NCBI GenBank assembly: GCA_028718945.1
Contig: JAQUKT010000004.1
Location: 1-56,305, forward strand
DNA: 56,305 bases
Origin: Actinomycetota bacterium
GTDB taxonomy: Bacteria; Actinomycetota; Geothermincolia; Fen-727; JAQUKT01
Direction of reading: 5' to 3'
The notes beneath the pieces are model-generated. The model made no database searches, had not been told where the DNA came from, and saw only the letters and a list, made by a program, of their open reading frames with translations. This document shows, piece after piece, positions 21,829 to 29,893 of the stretch (the stretch's first letter is position 1; each line of letters begins with the position of its first letter). Position numbers and translations under genes: made by a program.

Positions 21829-24327
21829 TCAAGCCCCACAGCATTTCTTGTACTTCTTTCCGCTTCCGCACGGGCAGGGATCGTTTCTCCCAATTTTCTC
21901 GTGCCGCCGCTGTTGCGGAACTTCCTCCTCACCACCGGAACTCTCAACTACGCTCAATGGCATTCTTTCCCTTTCAACTTCAACGACCTGAGCATGGAAG
22001 ATGTACCTTGCAAATTCCGTCTTTATCGATTCTGTCATTGATTGAAACATGTCGAACGCCTCTGCCTGGTACTCAACAAGCGGGTCGTGTCCTGCCATGC
22101 CCCTCAAACCGATTCCTTCCTGAAGATAATCGAGCTCATAGAGATGCTCCCGCCATTTATTGTCGAGCACCTCGAGCATTACCCATCTCTCCAGTTCCCT
22201 CATCATTTGAGAACCAATCTGCTCTTCCCGCTCCTCATATACCCTCAAGGCATCTTCAACCAGCATATCCTTGAGTTCCTCCTGGCTCATTCCCTCAACA
22301 TCGAGGTCATCGAGCGAGATATTGGTTGGAAATACCTGAGAAATATATGTAAAAAGGCCGCTGAAGTCCCATTCCTCCGGAAAAACCTGCGGATTCGCAA
22401 AAATGTCAACAGCGCTCCCTATTGCCTCCTCGACCCATTCGAGAGCAAGCTGGTGGAACTCTTTCCCTTCAAGAAGGCGATTTCTCTCCCCGTAAACAAC
22501 CTCTCTCTGTTTATTCATCACATCGTCATACTTCAAGAGGTTCTTCCTTATCTCGAAGTTTTGAGCCTCAACCTGCTTCTGGGCTGATTCTATTGCTTTC
22601 GTAACCAACTTGTGTTCGATTGGAATGTCATCGGGAAAATTGAACCTGTCCATCAGGTTTGCTATTGCCTGGGGAGCAAACCTTCGCATCAGGTCATCCT
22701 CCAAAGAAAGATAGAACCTCGAAACACCCGGGTCGCCCTGACGCCCTGAACGACCTCTCAACTGGTTGTCAATTCTTCTCGCTTCGTGCCTTTCAGTCCC
22801 TATTACTTTAAGACCACCGAGTTCAACTACTCCTTCGCCAAGCTTTATGTCGGTTCCCCTTCCAGCCATGTTCGTAGCAATCGTAACCGTGTTCTTCTGC
22901 CCGGCTAAAGCGACTATCTGCGCCTCCCTTTCATGATGTTTGGCATTGAGAACCTGATGCGGTATGCCCTGCTTCTCGAGCATCTTGGAAAGCCTTTCTG
23001 ATTTTTCAATCGAAACAGTCCCCACGAGCACAGGTTGCCCTCTCTCGTAACAAGCGCATATATCGTCCGCCACAGCCTCGAATTTTATCTTTTCCGTTTT
23101 GTAAATCAGGTCCGGCAGGTCTTCTCTTATCATCGGCTCATTCGTAGGGATTACAACCGTATCGAGACCATACGTGAGCTTGAATTCATCAGCCTCCGTC
23201 GCAGCGGTTCCTGTCATTCCCGCTAACTTCTCATACATTCTGAAGTAGTTTTGGAATGTTATCGTCGCAAGAGTCTGGTTTTCTTCCCTTATTCTCACAT
23301 TTTCCTTCGCCTCTATTGCCTGATGGATACCATCCGAGTAACGACGACCCGTCATCAGTCTGCCTGTGAACTCGTCAACTATTATGACCTCGCCATTCTT
23401 TATGATGTATTCAACCTCGTTCTGAAATAGCTCCTTTGCCTTTATCGCGGCATCCAGATGATGAATGAGATTTGCGTAAACATTATCGTAGAGATTATCA
23501 ACTCCAAGAATCTCCTCGACCTTTTCAATCCCCTCCTCGGTAACCGCCACAGTTCTCGTCTTCTCATCAATCTCGTAGTCAACATCGCGCTTGAGTCTCT
23601 TGGCTACCTGAGAAAAGCGCCTGTACCACTTTACTGATTCAGTAGCAGCTCCACTTATGATTAACGGAGTTCGCGCCTCGTCAATGAGAATGCTGTCAAC
23701 CTCATCAACTATCGCATAGTAATGACCCCTCTGCACTTTCTCGTCCAGAGACATGACCATGTTGTCACGAAGATAGTCAAAGCCAAACTCGTTATTCGTT
23801 CCGTAAGTTACATCACAGGCATACTCCCTCTTCCTTTCGGCAGGTCCCATGTGAGCCTGGATAACTCCAACATCCATTTTCAGCGCGCGATAAATCTCAC
23901 CCATCCAGACGCTATCGCGTTTTGCCAGATAGTCGTTCACAGTGACAACGTGAACTCCCGCCTTTGACAGGTGATTGAGAAAAACCGGCAGAGTCGCAAC
24001 AAGCGTCTTTCCTTCGCCGGTCTTCATCTCCGCGATTTTTCCCCGGTGAAGAGCGATCCCTCCCATTATCTGAACGTCAAAGTGTCTCTCCCCGAGCTTT
24101 CTTTTTGCAACTTCACGAACAACAGCAAATGCCTCAGGGAGAAGTTCATCAAGGGACTCGCCGGCTTCATGCCTTGCTCTAAACTCATCAGTCATCGAAG
24201 AAAGGTCTTCATCGGAAAGTTTCTCAAACCGTGGTTCAAGTGAGTTTATGTAACCAACAGCCTCTTCGAGTTCCCTAATCTTCTGGTTCTCGCCAAAACG
24301 CAGCGCTTTCTGAACTGACTTCAGCAT
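21829..24327 (-). CDS. secA: Preprotein translocase subunit SecA
   Basis: [41 protein letters not shown]-terminal SEC-C motif. Confidence 0.98.
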
Positions 24328-25864
24328 CGAAACTCAAATCCTCACCAGATATTCTCGGCAACACCTTCGCGATTGCCCTCAATACCTTGCTATCGTACTT
24401 CACGCCTCTCTCGAGATTCATCTCGGTCAATGCTTCACTCTCGGACAAGGGCTCCTTGTCGTCGCTTCCAGTTATGAGATTCTCAAAATCCTCCGCTGCC
24501 TTCAAAATTCCGGAGCCAACACTAACAGCCCTGCTTTTTCGGGGATCAACGACTCTCTTCTCCAATCCGCCTCTTCCCCTCAGTATCTCCGAAGCAACTT
24601 TTAGGTAATCAACCTTTCCAAGAATATCTTCGCCACCCGAAACGACCTCTTCAACCCCAAGAAGACGGTCCTGCTCAGATACGTGTTCCTCTTCCCTCGC
24701 TATGACACCGATGTCATGAAGATACGCGGCGTATTCCACCTGCCTCGTATCCTCAGGGCCAAGTCCAAGTTCGCGCGCGACCGCTCCCGCAAGAGTTGCG
24801 AGCCGCTTGGAATGACCCGGGGGTATCTTCCCAATTTCCTCCGGAATAACGGAGAGCGTCTTTACCGTGCCCAAAAGATAGATATCAGCAGCAGCAATCC
24901 TGTTGTATGCATATCTTATTACCGCAAGCAAGGGCAGAACAAGAATAACGAACCAGTTTCCAATGCCAATAAACACAAGCCCCATAAGAACACCAAGAAA
25001 ACCAATGGCGATAAACGGAACCCAGTATTTCCTCAATACGCTTGAAAAATAGGCTCCGGCGGGATATTGACCTTCCTTTGAGAGCATATATGAAAGGCGA
25101 AGAACATGGGCAATGAACAGGAAGGCAGCGGCAATCGCTGACGCGATCAGAATCCCGGGCCAGTAATGTCCCTGTAGTTCGGGTTTTTCGGGAAGAACGT
25201 TCAAAAGAAGCCTGTATATCAGCACGAAAGCCCCAACAGCAGAATAATCAAATAACAATTCAAGAATTCTTTCCTTGCTGATTTCTTTATTTCGTTCCGT
25301 TACAAGAGTTACAAGCGAACCGATCAGGAAAATCCAAACGACCTCAACAGCAGGATCTTTGATGGGAAGTGCAACGAGTGCTCCTATGAGAGGGGCAAGA
25401 CCAAGGCTCAACCTCGCACCGTCCCTCAACTCTATGTCGAAGTTCGCGCAAACAGTAAAGAGAACCAGGAAAAAAACCGTGTTCGTGAAATCTATCTTGC
25501 TTACATTCGTAAAAACGATGCTCAATGCAAGAGTAACAAGAGAGGCAATTACCGCAGCAATAAAAACTTTATCCACGCCACCACCACGAACCCCCCGACG
25601 AGATGTAACGCGTTCCTTTCGCTCGTGGCGCTCTTCAGCAGGAGTCTCAACCAGTTCATCAGGCGCACCTTCTGATTCTAAATCCTCAGTCGCAGCCTCT
25701 ATTTCATGCTCTTTAGAACTCTCGCTCGAACTAAAGGATTCTGCTTCACGCCACTCTTCATGGAGAAACGATTCCTGACTACTCTTTCTTCTTTTCTTTC
25801 TTCTCCGCCCTGTCTTCTTTCGTAAACTGGCGGACTCTTTTTCTTCGAATTCTTCTGGTTCCAA
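24275..25864 (-). CDS. Membrane protein with degenerate HD-GYP domain
   Basis: Multi-TM region paralogous to the upstream gene; GHS..HDIG retained, HHE/GYP/AVAD motifs lost; start uncertain. Confidence 0.75.
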
Positions 25865-27392
25865 CTTCCGTCCGCTCCCATCCCTCTATATCCTTTTCTA
25901 TTCCACTCTTTAGCTCCTCATAATGCTCGATACCGCTCACATCTCCGGTTTCTTTCTCTTCGTTGGCAGTCTCCTTTTCCTTGAGAGCCTCCTCGAGCGT
26001 TGGCTGTTCTTCCACAGTAACAGGCTCTTCTTTGACATAAGACTCAGGAACCTTCAGGGGGTCCTGTCGAGCCCCCTCCCATATTCCTTTCCTCACAACA
26101 ATATTTACGAACGCATCCACTACTTCGGGATCAAACTGGATGCCCTTCGCCCTTATTATCTCAGACACCGCACCATAAGCATCAAGCGGTTCCCTTCTCG
26201 GGCTCGGTCTTTGCATTGCATCAAACGCGTCGGCAACCGCGAGAATCCTGGAGCCCATTGGTATCGCATCACCAGCAAGCCCATCAACGTACCCACTTCC
26301 ATCAGTCATCTCGTGGTGATGCAGAACAGCCGGCGCAACAGGCTCTATGGATGATTCTTTCGAAAGTATTTCTCCCGCAATAAGAGGATGTTTCTTGATC
26401 TCCTCCCATTCCTCGGGGCCAAGCATTTCTGCTTTTGCAAAAATCTGAGGGTTCAATGGTAGTTTCCCAATATCATGCAGAAGCGCTGCCCTCCTCATGA
26501 AGTGAATGTCCTCATCGTTCAAGCCCAATTCCTCGGCAATCTCGACCGACATTTCCGCAACCGCTACCGAGTGCCCCTTGCTGAACAAGGAACGTTCCTC
26601 AATAGCTTCCACGACAGCAAGACTGGTTTCATCACAAACATCACGCATTGCCTCATATCTCGTATATACAACTCTCATCCCAAGAAGTGGAGCAAAAAGC
26701 AATACGAGCGCAGGAACTTCGAGCCTCACATAAAGTATCGCCGACAGGAAACCTATAACTGAATAGACGAAGTATGAGAGCAGTTTCGGAAGCATCTTCT
26801 TTAACCAGAAGCGGTAAAGACTCTCGCTCTTACGTGCGAGCAACGGCGTGACAAGGCAGGTATTTACGGCGAAAAAAACTATAGTTGCAAGCAGCCATGG
26901 AAATACGAGACCTCCGGCGTTCTTCAATCCCGGATTTAAGACTTCACCTCCGGTGTGGCTGAAGACCCATGCCGCCAGACCAGCACTGAGGAAGTACTGA
27001 CAGGTATTGAACGCAACTCTCCTTACCCCGCTCTCCTCGCGCTCCATCCAGAAAACGGGTATCCCGAATAGCGAAATGAGAGAAGCAACAAGCGGTCCAG
27101 AAGTCATCATCGCAACCACAACTGGAATCATTGCAAGAGAAAGTCTCCCGCCTCCTTTGAGCGGAAGCGCAAAAAGTTCAGAGGCAAGGAAAAAAAGCCC
27201 CATCAATAGAAGTACCCACCAGTTCTCTTTCTGGTAAGTCAATATGAGTAAGACGAGCACTCCGAGTGAGGCAATGAAAGCCACAGCCATTGTATTGTCG
27301 CGACGCTCACCATCACCAAGGAAACCCGACGTGCCTTTTTTTTCTTTCTTTCCAAACAATTCCTCGTCAAATTCGAGTTTCTTTCCTACCAC
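25779..27392 (-). CDS. Membrane-bound HD-GYP domain protein (putative c-di-GMP phosphodiesterase)
   Basis: Multi-TM N-terminus; GHS, LHDIGK, HP, HHHE.TDGSGYV, RILAVADAFDAM. Confidence 0.88.
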   Translation of the reverse strand: MVGKKLEFDEELFGKKEKKGTSGFLGDGERRDNTMAVAFIASLGVLVLLILTYQKENWWVLLLMGLFFLASELFALPLKGGGRLSLAMIPVVVAMMTSGPLVASLISLFGIPVFWMEREESGVRRVAFNTCQYFLSAGLAAWVFSHTGGEVLNPGLKNAGGLVFPWLLATIVFFAVNTCLVTPLLARKSESLYRFWLKKMLPKLLSYFVYSVIGFLSAILYVRLEVPALVLLFAPLLGMRVVYTRYEAMRDVCDETSLAVVEAIEERSLFSKGHSVAVAEMSVEIAEELGLNDEDIHFMRRAALLHDIGKLPLNPQIFAKAEMLGPEEWEEIKKHPLIAGEILSKESSIEPVAPAVLHHHEMTDGSGYVDGLAGDAIPMGSRILAVADAFDAMQRPSPRREPLDAYGAVSEIIRAKGIQFDPEVVDAFVNIVVRKGIWEGARQDPLKVPESYVKEEPVTVEEQPTLEEALKEKETANEEKETGDVSGIEHYEELKSGIEKDIEGWERTEVGTRRIRRKRVRQFTKEDRAEKKEKKKE

Positions 27393-27480: not shown

Positions 27481-28023
27481 CTATCTATTTGTTTCTATTA
27501 TTCCATGACCCTCGTCCGAGCGGCGATAAGCGATGCAAACGCGGTCAGTCAGGGCATTCAGAAAAACAAAGAAATCATGCCCAAGCATATCCATCTGCAA
27601 AACTGCCTCTTCCGGGTCCATTGGTTTCAACTGTACTTTCTTGTTTCGAATAATCTGCGAACTGTCTATTTTCTCACCTGGCTCCGCAAGAACATATTTT
27701 GCCGTCTTGCTGCCAGAGTGAGTTCTGACAATCTGCTTTTCGTGAAACTTTTTTATCTGGCGCAGCATCTTGTTGGTCGCCTTGTCAATAGCCGCGTACA
27801 TATCATAATCGCGCTCAGCAGCCCTCAGAATAGCCCCGTCCCCGGAAAGCGTAAGATCTACCTTCTGATTTTTCTTGATGCTCGGGTTTTTCTCAACCGC
27901 AAGCCTTACCTCAAGCTCTATAAAGTCAAGTCCAAGTTTTCCTATCTTTGAAACTTTCTCTTCAGTGTAATTCCTCAGCGCCTCGGTTACCTCTAAATTC
28001 TTGCCCTTCACAATGGTTTCCAT
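27481..28023 (-). CDS. hpf: Ribosome hibernation promoting factor (long HPF/RaiA)
   Basis: GKNLEVTEALRNY..EK, DMYAAID, C-terminal LKPMDPEEAVLQMDMLGHDFFVF. Confidence 0.95.
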   Translation of the reverse strand: METIVKGKNLEVTEALRNYTEEKVSKIGKLGLDFIELEVRLAVEKNPSIKKNQKVDLTLSGDGAILRAAERDYDMYAAIDKATNKMLRQIKKFHEKQIVRTHSGSKTAKYVLAEPGEKIDSSQIIRNKKVQLKPMDPEEAVLQMDMLGHDFFVFLNALTDRVCIAYRRSDEGHGIIETNR

Positions 28024-28273
28024 CAGCACCACCCCTCAAAACATACTTCTTGAAGGAACCCTTACCTAACTTGGAAAGTTAGATCTCACACACGCAAATA
28101 CCTTTAGCCCGCATAGTTTTGAACTTACATATCCAACAAGAAACCTCAAAATTTGCCACACAATAGCACGCATCACTTTTTTTTAGACTATCACAGGGCT
28201 CTTCAGGTGTCCACAAAGGAAATCGTGTCATTATCTTCTTAGGAATTGTTACAAATCTGAAAGGGAATAATAA

Positions 28274-28485
28274 GGCGGGTTCCGCTGACCTGGTCTTTGC
28301 CCCCACACTCGCCTGCTGAGGTTTTGCAGGCTTGCCAATTTACAAACCCACGCCACCTTCTCTCCCTTTGAAAGAAGGCAGGACTAACACCTAAGCCGCA
28401 CCATGCTCAGCAACCATTAGTTGCCTTACGTGGGTCGCTTTGCCTGCGGCTGGCATCGACTTTCAACCACAGACCGAAACCCGCC
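28274..28485 (-). ncRNA. raiA-motif RNA (about 212 nt)
   Basis: Minus strand has the raiA-motif blocks as I recall them: GGUCUGUGGUUGAAAGUCGAUGCCAG.CGCAGGCAAA.CGA.CCACGUAAG, GAGCAUGGUGCGGCUUAG, GUCCUGCC, CAGCAGGCGAGUGUGGGG.CAAAGACCAGGUCA; closing stem GGCGGGUU/AACCCGCC; upstream of hpf/raiA. Confidence 0.92.
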
Positions 28486-28510
28486 TACAAAAATATTTTT
28501 AGCCCCTGCC

Positions 28511-28538
28511 ATGTAGCTGACAATATGTAGCTGACAAT
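28511..28538. repeat. Exact 14-bp tandem duplication
   Basis: ATGTAGCTGACAAT twice, between the flgM-like stop and the raiA RNA 5' end. Confidence 0.9.
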
Positions 28539-28542
28539 AGTT

Positions 28543-28812
28543 TCAATCTAATTTGTCCGATATGACTCGCCCGATTATCTTTTTAGCAACCTCGTCACTG
28601 CTCACATCGTAGCTCGAAGACTCAATTGCTTTCTTTACTTTCTCTACTCTATCCTTCCTTACCACAGGAGTATCACCTATTGTTTTCACAACCTCCTTGA
28701 CCGATTCGAGATCTTTCGAGTTTTCCTTTTTTTTGGTCTCGGTCCTTCCAGCATTCTTTTTCTTTTTCAGTGAATCGAGCGTGTTTTGTATTTCCCTGTC
28801 GGACAACTGCAT
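28543..28812 (-). CDS. flgM: FlgM-like anti-sigma-28 factor
   Basis: 89 aa; C-terminal VRKDRVEKVKKAIESSSYDVSSDEVAKKII matches the FlgM R..RV..(I/L)K.AI..G.Y.V...IA..(I/L) pattern; follows comF as in Bacillota. Confidence 0.75.
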   Translation of the reverse strand: MQLSDREIQNTLDSLKKKKNAGRTETKKKENSKDLESVKEVVKTIGDTPVVRKDRVEKVKKAIESSSYDVSSDEVAKKIIGRVISDKLD

Positions 28813-28852
28813 ATCCACCCGCCCTTTCAATCGCAACTCGACCTCAAGAAAA

Positions 28853-28880
28853 GTATCGGTAGTTGAAATTCTCAACTGAA
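28853..28880 (-). promoter_or_regulatory. sigma28 (FliA/WhiG)-like promoter with palindromic spacer
   Basis: TTCA-N16-ACCGATAC about 40 nt upstream of the flgM ATG; spacer contains AGTTGA-N5-TCAACT. Confidence 0.5.
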
Positions 28881-29035
28881 ATAACCATGAAACCGAAGTT
28901 AGATTCCAAAACGCCTTTCGTTTATGAAAAACGCAATATTTATATGAATTTATCATTCTTGCGGGTGATGAACAAGCAGAAATTTCCCATATTTCTTTTT
29001 AGAATCGGCCAGAATAGTGATTTTGAAATTTCTAC

Positions 29036-29893
29036 TTACTTGCTCTTATAGACTCTCAAAGGCACAAGCGCAGCAACAAGAATGTGAACCGATGTTGCGC
29101 CGCCCGAAAAAAGAGTGGAAGCACACTCGAGAACTGTCGCGCCCGTGGTCAAAACATCATCTACAAGAAGAACTCCCCGGTTTTTCTGTGCATCTCCAGA
29201 TACTTCGAAAGCGCCCTTGACATTCTGCTGGCGACCGGTACGTGGCAACTCGTCCTGATCAAAAGTTTTTCTTGTTTTTACCAGCAACGATGAGCACTTC
29301 CTTCCGAAATGCGAAGATACTGCGCGAGCGAGCAATTCCGCGGGGTTATAACCCCTTTCCGTGACCTTTTTCCTTTCGGATGGCACAAATGTAATTATAT
29401 CCGGGTGAGAAAATGAGGGGTCATTCCCGCAAGCAACCACCATCATTCTACCAAGTGGAATGGCACTCTCCCTGTAGCCGGACTTGAGTTTCATCACGAG
29501 TTCTCTTGTTTCTCCCCTGTACTCACCTCCCGCCCTTACGCCTGATACCTTGCAAATATCACAAATCTCTTCAAGGGCATACTCGTACTGGGATGTTTTC
29601 GTGGAAGAAACCTTTTTCTCAAGACAACTTGAGCAAAGTAACCCCGTGCCTTGCAAACCACAGCAGACACATTTTGAAGGGAAAACCAGTTCGATAAGCT
29701 CTCTTTTTGCTTGCTGAAGACCCTTTTTTGAACAAACGCTCAGTAGCAAAGGAGATTCACGCACCTGTTCTAACCGTTCCCGTAGGATTCCGCAGGAAAT
29801 GTTTTGGCAAGTTTTTGCTTGCTCTGCTAATATAGAATACAGGAATTCCCTAAATAAATCAAGAGCCGTGAAGACTATGGAGGCTTTTTTCAA
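29036..29893 (-). CDS. comF: ComF family amidophosphoribosyltransferase-like protein
   Basis: CVCCG/CSSC zinc motif, VP...RGYNPA, R..NVKGAF, LLVDDVLTTGAT; true start probably internal. Confidence 0.88.
   Translation of the reverse strand: MKKASIVFTALDLFREFLYSILAEQAKTCQNISCGILRERLEQVRESPLLLSVCSKKGLQQAKRELIELVFPSKCVCCGLQGTGLLCSSCLEKKVSSTKTSQYEYALEEICDICKVSGVRAGGEYRGETRELVMKLKSGYRESAIPLGRMMVVACGNDPSFSHPDIITFVPSERKKVTERGYNPAELLARAVSSHFGRKCSSLLVKTRKTFDQDELPRTGRQQNVKGAFEVSGDAQKNRGVLLVDDVLTTGATVLECASTLFSGGATSVHILVAALVPLRVYKSK

What the first reader, a model, noticed from the sequence alone, without database searches (positions are those of the whole stretch)
28543..28880. Orphan FlgM with its own sigma28-type promoter: possible non-flagellar sigma28/anti-sigma switch
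Seen: an FlgM-like gene directly after comF, without the flgN/flgK/flgL/fliD/fliS genes found between comF and hpf in Bacillota. It is preceded by TTCA-N16-ACCGATAC with a palindrome filling the spacer. Known: FlgM inhibits sigma28 and is normally removed by flagellar export, whereas Streptomyces WhiG uses RsiG/c-di-GMP. Inference: if the genome lacks a flagellar export apparatus, this is a repurposed FlgM-sigma28 circuit released by an unknown mechanism, clustered with the raiA RNA, HPF and HD-GYP genes (dormancy or development control).
Basis: partly seen in the sequence, partly recalled or inferred. Interest (0 to 1): 0.65.

Follow-up and report, generated by a model that had tools for sequence, protein, structure and literature searches.

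The report
Flagellar anti-sigma FlgM kept without flagella
An uncultured anaerobic actinobacterium with no flagellar genes and no RsiG still keeps the flagellar brake protein FlgM and its sigma factor WhiG under selection, so the pair probably now works as a flagellum-independent gene switch whose release signal is unknown.

Summary
Window 28543-28812 (-) encodes an 89-aa FlgM (Pfam PF04316, 42.6 bits against a cut-off of 25). It lies between comF and the raiA RNA/hpf. Upstream is TTCA-N16-ACCGATAC (28853-28880, -), which fits the published WhiG/sigma-28 promoter definition.

The genome is a Ca. Geothermincolia-type Actinomycetota MAG, 94% complete. It has no FlhA, FlhB, FliPQR, FliF, flagellin, rod or hook-associated genes. 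It does have one sigma-28 gene (xerC-whiG-rpsB) that is about 64% identical to Streptomyces WhiG.

Across the 21 genomes of its order:
- FlgM is present in 20 and WhiG in 20.
- Flagellar markers occur in only 2, both low-quality MAGs.
- RsiG (PF22802), the known WhiG anti-sigma, is in none. It is in 28/30 other genomes of the class.

flgM is under purifying selection (dN/dS 0.10-0.33). Its promoter motif recurs upstream of flgM in at least 10 genomes of the order.

Best reading: FlgM is the WhiG anti-sigma factor here, in an autoregulated loop, and is released by something other than flagellar export. Binding, release mechanism and regulon are not shown. Linkage to raiA, hpf and the HD-GYP genes is inherited gene order, not evidence of shared function. 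Legionella oakridgensis is a precedent, so this is a new variant of a known kind.

The parts
28543..28812 (-). flgM, 89-aa anti-sigma-28 factor homologue (true start ATG at 28812)
   Evidence: Pfam PF04316 at 42.6 bits against a cut-off of 25. A profile of homologues hits solved FlgM chains. Twelve homologues share the MQLSD start. dN/dS is 0.10-0.33. The AF2 model has four helices at low confidence.
28853..28880 (-). WhiG/sigma-28-type promoter: -35 TTCA (28877-28880), 16-nt spacer, -10 ACCGATAC (28853-28860)
   Evidence: Read from the sequence. [quoted passage not shown] It is conserved upstream of flgM in the order.
28861..28877 (.). 6-bp inverted repeat (AGTTGA-5 nt-TCAACT) in the promoter spacer
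   Evidence: Present in this genome and absent from the spacers of all relatives examined. Probably not functional.
29036..29893 (-). comF (ComF/GntX-family phosphoribosyltransferase-like), upstream neighbour
   Evidence: TIGR00201 and NF008616 hits (E 1e-20 to 3e-22; both far below their curated cut-offs), plus a sub-cut-off Pfam Pribosyltran hit (25.7 vs 26.3 bits). Synteny is conserved.
28276..28483 (-). raiA motif RNA, downstream of flgM on the same strand
   Evidence: Rfam RF03072 at 171.5 bits against a gathering score of 101.3. A sigma-70-like promoter match lies at 28523->28495.
27481..28032 (-). hpf (long ribosome hibernation-promoting factor)
   Evidence: PF02482 plus PF16321, and TIGR00741.
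25779..27392 (-). MASE9-HD-GYP-type (HD_5) membrane protein, a putative c-di-GMP phosphodiesterase
   Evidence: PF13487 at 113 bits and PF20972. Its position between hpf and secA is conserved across the class.
24275..25864 (-). second, more divergent HD_5-domain membrane protein
   Evidence: PF13487 at 44.5 bits. Position conserved.
21829..24327 (-). secA, the end of the ancestral comF...hpf-secA block
   Evidence: ORF translation. 70-76% identical in the order (one of four at 61%) and about 72% over its N-terminal part in the class.

Best explanation
The gene is a true FlgM homologue. In this non-flagellate, RsiG-less order of Geothermincolia it most likely acts as the cytoplasmic anti-sigma factor of the single sigma-28-family factor, WhiG (encoded on another contig between xerC and rpsB).

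WhiG-RNA polymerase would transcribe flgM from the TTCA-N16-(G/A)(A/C)CGATA promoter, so the sigma factor drives its own inhibitor in a negative feedback loop. The genome has no type III export gate, so FlgM cannot be removed through a hook-basal body. Release must be intracellular. Regulated proteolysis, as reported for Legionella oakridgensis, is the most likely route. A partner-switching protein or a small-molecule signal is less likely.

Shown here:
- Family membership by profile.
- Absence of flagellar and RsiG genes.
- Presence of WhiG.
- Purifying selection on flgM.
- Conservation of the promoter motif.

Inferred, not shown:
- FlgM-WhiG binding.
- WhiG dependence of the promoter.
- The release mechanism.
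- The regulon.
For: 1. Identity. Pfam FlgM scores 42.6 bits over the C-terminal sigma-28-binding region. A profile of the homologues hits the solved FlgM chains 9wsf_B and 1rp3_B.

2. Partner. The genome has one sigma-28 gene, TIGR02479 at 278 bits (cut-off 189.6). It scores 296 bits and is about 64% identical to S. venezuelae WhiG 6PFJ_A.

3. No export route. There is no FlhA, flagellin or FliF. tblastn with relatives' flagellar clusters finds only FlgM, the sigma factor and che genes.

4. No alternative anti-sigma. RsiG PF22802 is found in 0/21 genomes of the order, against 28/30 other genomes of the class and 8/10 phylum-level relatives. An HMM that includes Geothermincolia RsiGs gives a best E of 1.1 in this genome. 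The RsiG sequence motif is absent.

5. Retention. FlgM is in 20/21 genomes of the order. That includes all 12 high-quality genomes, which lack all three flagellar markers. dN/dS is 0.10-0.33 at dS 0.75-1.5.

6. Autoregulatory promoter. The strict motif lies upstream of flgM in 10 genomes, with variants in 4 more. It fits the published WhiG search consensus.

7. Precedent. L. oakridgensis keeps only FliA and FlgM. [quoted passage not shown]
Against: - No physical or expression evidence exists.
- The score against the NCBIfam FlgM equivalog is below its cut-off (33.4 against 40.75).
- No second WhiG-type promoter target could be identified. A relaxed motif scan of the genome gave 74 hits against about 66 in shuffles. 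The recurrent strict hits in the order lie inside coding sequences. The sigma factor therefore has no demonstrated regulon.
- Two low-completeness MAGs of the order (G016, G019) carry flagellar genes that look native. G016 FlhA is 65% identical to class relatives and has matching GC. Flagellar loss may therefore be repeated and partly recent.
- All genomes are MAGs. This one is 94% complete.
Confidence: 0.6

Rival explanations
1. Vestigial remnant. flgM is a decaying leftover of a recently lost flagellar regulon and no longer does anything.
For: Two MAGs of the order still have flagellar genes, so some losses may be recent. flgM sits at its ancestral comF-hpf position.
Against: The ORF is intact and of equal length in 20/21 genomes across 13 genera. 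dN/dS is 0.10-0.33 at dS near 1 between non-flagellate genomes. The N-terminal 13 residues are nearly invariant across the order (10 of 13 invariant), the C-terminal domain is highly conserved, and the promoter is conserved.
Confidence: 0.08
2. Classical flagellar FlgM. The genome is flagellated and its flagellar clusters fall in the unassembled 6% or were not binned.
For: The MAG has 121 contigs and is 94% complete. A che operon is present at C2:20152-27569. Some relatives are flagellated.
Against: A flagellum needs 30 or more genes, usually at several loci, and none was found. All 12 high-quality genomes of the order lack FlhA, flagellin and FliF, including one at 99% completeness and a 10-contig assembly.
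Confidence: 0.05
3. FlgM binds WhiG, but the switch still responds to c-di-GMP. The nucleotide would bind at the retained WhiG pocket, and the neighbouring HD-GYP enzymes would set its level.
For: WhiG keeps the residues that contact c-di-GMP in Streptomyces. In this genome they are R57, G61 and R62. K/R-G-R is found in 11 of 13 WhiGs of the order. Two HD-GYP-type genes are conserved three genes downstream. c-di-GMP enzymes are the most widespread predicted WhiG targets (PMC13595943).
Against: In the solved complexes RsiG supplies almost all c-di-GMP contacts (PMC8325347). FlgM has no E-x3-S-x2-R-x3-Q/H-x3-D motif. G61 is replaced by H or A in two families of the order. The HD-GYP linkage also exists in RsiG-containing and flagellated relatives.
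Confidence: 0.1
4. FlgM has a different partner or role here, for example another sigma factor or a non-transcriptional role. WhiG would then be controlled by an unrecognised protein.
For: Binding was not tested. Small helical proteins change partners easily. Another protein could fill the RsiG role unseen.
Against: The conserved part is exactly the Pfam sigma-28-binding region. Every genome of the order with FlgM and adequate assembly has WhiG. The gene carries a sigma-28-type promoter, as in classical systems.
Confidence: 0.12

Closest known systems
FliA-FlgM module of the non-flagellated Legionella oakridgensis (Tlapak et al. 2017, reviewed in PMC5655016)
   Same: The whole flagellar regulon is missing while sigma-28 and FlgM are kept. 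flgM is preceded by, or dependent on, a sigma-28 promoter. FlgM must be inactivated without export.
   Different: The phylum differs (Actinomycetota against Gammaproteobacteria). The sigma factor here is of the WhiG2 type, whose normal partner is RsiG. The pattern here covers a whole order with 13 genera, not one species. No experimental data exist here.
Bacillus subtilis SigD-FlgM, with the comF-(yvyF)-flgM-flgN-flgK-flgL...fliD-fliS-fliT-hpf-secA and codV...fla/che-sigD-rpsB loci (gene order from own knowledge)
   Same: The chromosomal anchors are the same. flgM lies after comF and before hpf-secA, and the sigma-28 gene lies between a xerC-like gene and rpsB. The small FlgM is similar, with a sigma-28-type promoter.
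   Different: All structural flagellar genes are missing between the anchors. There is no export apparatus, so the checkpoint logic of hook completion followed by FlgM secretion cannot apply.
RsiG-(c-di-GMP)2-WhiG switch of Streptomyces venezuelae and Rubrobacter radiotolerans (PDB 6PFJ, 7LQ4; PMC7005675, PMC8325347, PMC13595943)
   Same: The sigma factor is orthologous: about 64% identity, and R57/G61/R62 and T235/L236/E240/L242 are retained. The host is non-flagellate. Sister orders of the same class carry single-motif RsiG.
   Different: RsiG is absent from all 21 genomes of this order. FlgM, reported as lost early in Actinomycetota and not known to bind c-di-GMP, is the only recognisable anti-sigma factor.
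Helicobacter pylori FlgM (as summarised in PMC5655016)
   Same: FlgM is said there to be inactivated rather than exported.
   Different: H. pylori is flagellated and has an export gate with which FlgM can interact. This genome has none.

Membership tests
FlgM anti-sigma-28 factor (Pfam PF04316) | Profile match above the curated threshold over the C-terminal sigma-28-binding region | tested here: met
   42.6 bits against a cut-off of 25, residues 34-80. A homologue profile hits solved FlgM chains 9wsf_B (E 2.5e-9) and 1rp3_B (E 0.0036).
FlgM anti-sigma-28 factor (NCBIfam equivalog TIGR03824) | Score above the equivalog cut-off, which implies the same function as flagellar FlgM | tested here: not met
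   33.4 bits against a cut-off of 40.75. NCBI nevertheless names close MAG homologues FlgM.
FlgM anti-sigma-28 factor | Small (about 90 aa), largely unstructured alone, four helices when bound | tested here: inconclusive
   89 aa. The AF2 model has four helices (5-21, 31-45, 51-65, 74-88) at mean pLDDT 62 and pTM 0.22. This is compatible but not diagnostic.
FlgM anti-sigma-28 factor | A cognate sigma-28 (FliA/SigD/WhiG) in the same genome | tested here: met
   TIGR02479 at 278 bits at G000:C12:3032-3712.
FlgM anti-sigma-28 factor | Physical binding to and inhibition of sigma-28 | not testable with these tools
   No complex prediction or experiment was available.
FlgM anti-sigma-28 factor (classical checkpoint) | Removal by export through the flagellar type III apparatus | tested here: not met
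   There is no FlhA/SctV family gene. tblastn finds no FlhB or FliPQR. There is no FliF or flagellin.
RsiG-(c-di-GMP)-WhiG switch | An RsiG anti-sigma factor (PF22802; E-x3-S-x2-R-x3-Q/H-x3-D helix) in the genome | tested here: not met
   0/21 genomes of the order reach the cut-off. Own-genome hmmsearch gives a best E of 1.1. The motif is absent. As a positive control, the same model finds RsiG in 36 relatives.
RsiG-(c-di-GMP)-WhiG switch | WhiG2-type sigma factor with the c-di-GMP and RsiG contact residues K57, G61, R62, T235, L236, E240, L242 | tested here: met
   This genome has R57, G61, R62, T, L, E, L. Only the first three positions discriminate, because P. aeruginosa FliA also has T-L-E-L.
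Orphan FliA/FlgM module of non-flagellate bacteria (L. oakridgensis type) | Flagellar structural regulon absent while sigma-28 and FlgM are retained | tested here: met
Orphan FliA/FlgM module of non-flagellate bacteria (L. oakridgensis type) | flgM transcribed from a sigma-28-dependent promoter | tested here: inconclusive
   A conserved motif fits the consensus.
Orphan FliA/FlgM module of non-flagellate bacteria (L. oakridgensis type) | FlgM removed by regulated degradation | not testable with these tools
   Inference by analogy only (PMC5655016).

The most novel reading that the evidence does not exclude
FlgM, not RsiG, is the ancestral anti-sigma factor of the WhiG2 lineage, and RsiG arose as a diverged FlgM-like paralogue that acquired the c-di-GMP-binding helix. 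Geothermincolia would preserve all the stages: flagella with FlgM and RsiG; FlgM with RsiG but no flagella; RsiG only; and, in this order, FlgM only.

The support is weak but consistent. Single-motif RsiG and FlgM profiles align co-linearly (RsiG '...LRAELVRRKKAG..GKTIISDEEISR' against FlgM '...VRKDRVEKVKKAIESSSYDVSSDEVAK'). hhalign gives a score of 23.2, a P of about 1e-3 and a probability of only 18-23%. That score exceeded all 300 column-shuffled controls (mean 11.4, maximum 22.5). The two proteins coexist with one WhiG in most of the class.
Probability: 0.1. Interest if true: 0.8.

Novelty: new variant of a known kind. Interest (0 to 1): 0.5.

Why it matters
Current work on WhiG in Actinomycetota (PMC13595943, 2026) makes three statements that bear on this finding:
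- WhiG2-type factors are typically regulated by RsiG and c-di-GMP.
- FlgM was probably lost early in the phylum.

That survey used 673 reference genomes and did not cover these uncultured basal classes.

Here a whole order has a WhiG2-type sigma factor with neither flagella nor RsiG, but with a conserved and selected FlgM. Its sister orders carry FlgM and single-motif RsiG together.

If FlgM binds WhiG, this gives a third mode of WhiG control. It also gives a living intermediate for asking how the c-di-GMP switch replaced the secretion checkpoint. Finally, it is a second, phylogenetically independent case for studying how FlgM is released without export. The proteins are small and could be tested heterologously in E. 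coli or Streptomyces venezuelae.

Tried and rejected
1. WhiG regulon. A relaxed motif scan of this genome was not enriched: 74 hits against 49-79 in shuffles. Intergenic CCGATA sites showed no coherent set. The three strict hits in this genome lie inside genes. Across the order the strict motif gave 97 hits against 16 for the reversed control. The recurrent non-flgM hits are conserved coding sequence, such as secA 'FNFPEDMPIEH', a TrkA-like channel and an FAD protein. The excess is therefore mostly codon bias, apart from the 10 flgM sites. No motif was found upstream of the che operon, whiG or the pilin genes.

2. Flagellin promoters in the two flagellated MAGs. Only a shared GGACGA(T/C)T was seen, with no clear -35 element. 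This was not used as evidence.

3. Palindrome in the spacer. It is not conserved and was rejected as an operator.

4. Functional reading of the raiA/hpf/HD-GYP clustering. The gene order is class-wide, including in flagellated genomes.

5. RsiG-FlgM homology. hhalign is weak and profile searches of the PDB gave no cross-hits. It is kept only as a lead.

6. Sigma-28 tree. It was poorly resolved. It shows only that this WhiG groups with S. venezuelae WhiG and the class WhiGs, apart from P. aeruginosa FliA and the flagellar-cluster paralogue of G036; the flagellar-cluster paralogue of G055 was left unresolved within the large clade on a long branch.

8. Fold search. It was not run because the FlgM model is of low confidence.

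Full report
**What is at the locus**

On the minus strand the window reads comF (29036-29893), flgM (28543-28812), raiA motif RNA (28276-28483), hpf (27481-28032), a MASE9/HD-GYP-type gene (25779-27392), a second HD_5 gene (24275-25864) and secA (21829-24327).

The 89-aa product MQLSDREIQ...SDKLD matches Pfam FlgM at 42.6 bits (cut-off 25) over residues 34-80, the sigma-28-binding part. It scores 33.4 bits against the stricter NCBIfam equivalog, whose cut-off is 40.75. A profile of its homologues finds the solved FlgM chains 9wsf_B (E 2.5e-9) and Aquifex 1rp3_B (E 0.0036). An AlphaFold2 model gives four helices at low confidence (pLDDT 62), as expected for a protein that folds on its partner.

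All 12 homologues examined start at MQLSD or MQISD. The longer database gene calls (110 and 137 aa) are therefore over-extended and hide the promoter.

**The promoter**

Upstream on the minus strand the sequence is TTCA (28877-28880), 16 nt, then ACCGATAC (28853-28860), about 40 nt before the ATG. The 2026 survey of WhiG regulons searched with -35 xT(C/A)Ax and -10 GCCGA, allowing one mismatch in the first two bases (PMC13595943). This site fits that definition.

The site is conserved:
- The strict pattern TTCA-N16-G[AC]CGATA lies directly upstream of flgM in 10 other genomes of the order (coordinates matched).
- G005 and G003 have TACA-N16-GACGATA.
- G001 and G013 have TTCA-N16-G(A/T)CGATG.
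- A flagellated relative of the same class has the near-canonical TTAA-N16-GCCGATAA.

The 6-bp palindrome in the spacer occurs only in this genome, so I give it no weight.

**The genome has a sigma-28 factor but no flagellum**

Names on close FlgM homologues and earlier notes on this genome place it in Actinomycetota, of the Ca. Geothermincolia type. The assembly is 1.8 Mb in 121 contigs and 94% complete.

- FlhA/SctV is absent.
- Flagellin and FliF are absent.
- tblastn used every ORF of the flagellar clusters of three relatives as queries. It found no FlgK, FlgL, FlgN, FliW, CsrA, rod proteins, FliP/Q/R, FlhB or FlhA.
- That search found only FlgM, the sigma factor and a che operon at C2:20152-27569.

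One sigma-28-family gene is present (TIGR02479, 278 bits) between xerC and rpsB. It scores 296 bits and is about 64% identical to S. venezuelae WhiG in the RsiG complex 6PFJ. It keeps the residues that PMC13595943 gives as typical of the RsiG-regulated WhiG2 clade, here R57, G61, R62, T235, L236, E240 and L242. The xerC-whiG-rpsB arrangement holds throughout the class.

**RsiG is missing**

Primer sequences in the supplement of PMC8325347 let me recover 22 native single-motif rsiG genes from Thermoleophilia. These revealed a Pfam model, PF22802, and they hit the solved RsiG chains.

That model gives no hit at or above its cut-off in any of the 21 genomes of this order. It finds RsiG in 28 of 30 other genomes of the class and in 8 of 10 phylum-level relatives, which are exactly those with WhiG. 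An HMM that includes Geothermincolia RsiGs gives a best E of 1.1 against all six-frame ORFs of this genome. The defining motif E-x3-S-x2-R-x3-Q/H-x3-D has no credible match.

**Phyletic pattern and selection**

In the order (21 genomes, 13 genera, 4 families):

| Gene | Genomes with it |
|---|---|
| FlgM | 20 |
| WhiG | 20 |
| FlhA | 1 |
| Flagellin and FliF | 2 |
| RsiG | 0 |

All 12 high-quality genomes lack the three flagellar markers and carry FlgM.

The two MAGs with flagellar genes (G016, G019) are 77-80% complete, and their congeners lack those genes. G016's FlhA is 65% identical to that of class relatives and its contig GC matches the genome. The genes may therefore be native, which would mean flagella were lost repeatedly within the order.

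Among non-flagellate genomes flgM has dN/dS of 0.10-0.33 at dS 0.75-1.5. The N-terminal 13 residues are nearly invariant within the order, the C-terminal domain is strongly conserved and the linker is variable. This is not a decaying remnant.

Outside the order, many non-flagellate class members carry both FlgM and RsiG. One family carries RsiG only.

**Surroundings**

The block ahcY-aldolase-mtnA-comF-flgM-hpf-HDGYP-HD-secA is conserved in the order and in the class, including flagellated genomes. The raiA RNA typically lies between comFC and raiA/hpf in Bacillota and Actinomycetota (PMC10861870).

From my own knowledge of B. subtilis gene order, both regulators sit at ancestral anchors. There flgM lies in comF-flgM-...-hpf-secA and sigD lies in codV...fla/che-sigD-rpsB. 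Here the structural genes between those anchors are absent. The linkage to raiA, hpf and HD-GYP is thus inherited and does not show a joint dormancy function.

**Mechanism proposed**

WhiG holoenzyme transcribes flgM. FlgM binds and sequesters WhiG, which makes a negative feedback loop. With no export gate, release must be intracellular.

The closest precedent is Legionella oakridgensis. It lacks the whole flagellar regulon but keeps FliA and FlgM. [quoted passage not shown] I therefore favour regulated proteolysis.

A c-di-GMP input through the retained WhiG pocket is possible but less likely. In the known complexes RsiG provides most of the contacts, and G61 is replaced in two families of the order.

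What WhiG controls here is unknown. All regulon searches failed to find a second conserved target.

**Relation to the literature**

- PMC10746217 noted that basal actinobacterial classes keep FlgM within their flagellar gene sets.
- PMC13595943 reported FlgM as absent from almost all actinobacterial flagellar clusters and WhiG as co-occurring with either flagella or RsiG.
- NCBI's pipeline already names these MAG proteins FlgM.

The new point is the combination of a WhiG2-type sigma factor and a selected FlgM, with neither flagella nor RsiG, across an order. The coexistence of FlgM and single-motif RsiG in sister orders is also new. Single-motif RsiGs were previously reported only from Rubrobacteria and Thermoleophilia (PMC8325347).

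**A weak lead**

RsiG and FlgM profiles align co-linearly with an hhalign P of about 1e-3 and a probability of 18-23%. The score is above all 300 column-shuffled controls. Sequence-profile searches of the PDB give no cross-hits. This is not evidence of homology yet.

**Limits**

No binding, transcription or stability data exist.

**Verdict**

This is a new variant of a known kind, of moderate interest.

Noticed in passing
G000:C2:20152-27569 (outside the window): A complete chemotaxis operon (cheR, MCP, cheW, cheY, cheB, cheA, cheC, cheD) sits in a genome with no flagellar genes. It presumably serves pili or another output. No sigma-28-type motif lies upstream of it.
   Followed up: partly
L174-L179 (G035-G038, G051 and G052) and the table: Single-motif RsiG (about 100 aa, EARVSYQRRVLHGKID) is present in nearly all Geothermincolia outside this order. 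Single-motif RsiGs were previously reported only from Rubrobacteria and Thermoleophilia. In many genomes it coexists with FlgM.
   Followed up: partly
alignments A1/A3 (RsiG) against A2/A4 (FlgM): There is a weak co-linear profile similarity between single-motif RsiG and FlgM. hhalign scores 23.2 with P about 1e-3, above all 300 column shuffles, at a probability of only 18-23%.
   Followed up: partly
window 24275-27392 (-): A pair of membrane HD_5/HD-GYP-type genes (the first with a MASE9 sensor, the second divergent) lies between hpf and secA. The pair is conserved at this position across the whole class.
   Followed up: partly
window 28495-28523 (-): A sigma-70-like promoter match (TTGTCA-17-AAAAAT) lies just upstream of the raiA RNA, and no terminator-like site follows flgM. 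The raiA RNA may have its own promoter and may also be read through from flgM.
   Followed up: no
window 28813-28956 (-): Public gene calls extend flgM to 110 or 137 aa, which covers the promoter. Homologues show the true start is the ATG at 28812.
   Followed up: yes
G008:C60:92486-93163 and G020:C30:31169-31846: One genus of the order has a second WhiG-type paralogue (about 274 bits) about 20 kb from flgM on the same contig, without flagellar genes.
   Followed up: no
L180 (G001) and L183 (G004), whiG: Gly61 of WhiG is reported to be sterically essential for c-di-GMP packing. It is replaced by His or Ala in two RsiG-less families of the order, and is Gly in all 12 rpsB-linked WhiGs examined from RsiG-containing relatives.
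   Followed up: partly
G016:C13, G016:C112 and G019:C47: Two low-completeness MAGs of the otherwise non-flagellate order carry flagellar clusters with matching GC and 65% FlhA identity to class relatives. This means either repeated recent loss elsewhere or mis-binning.
   Followed up: partly
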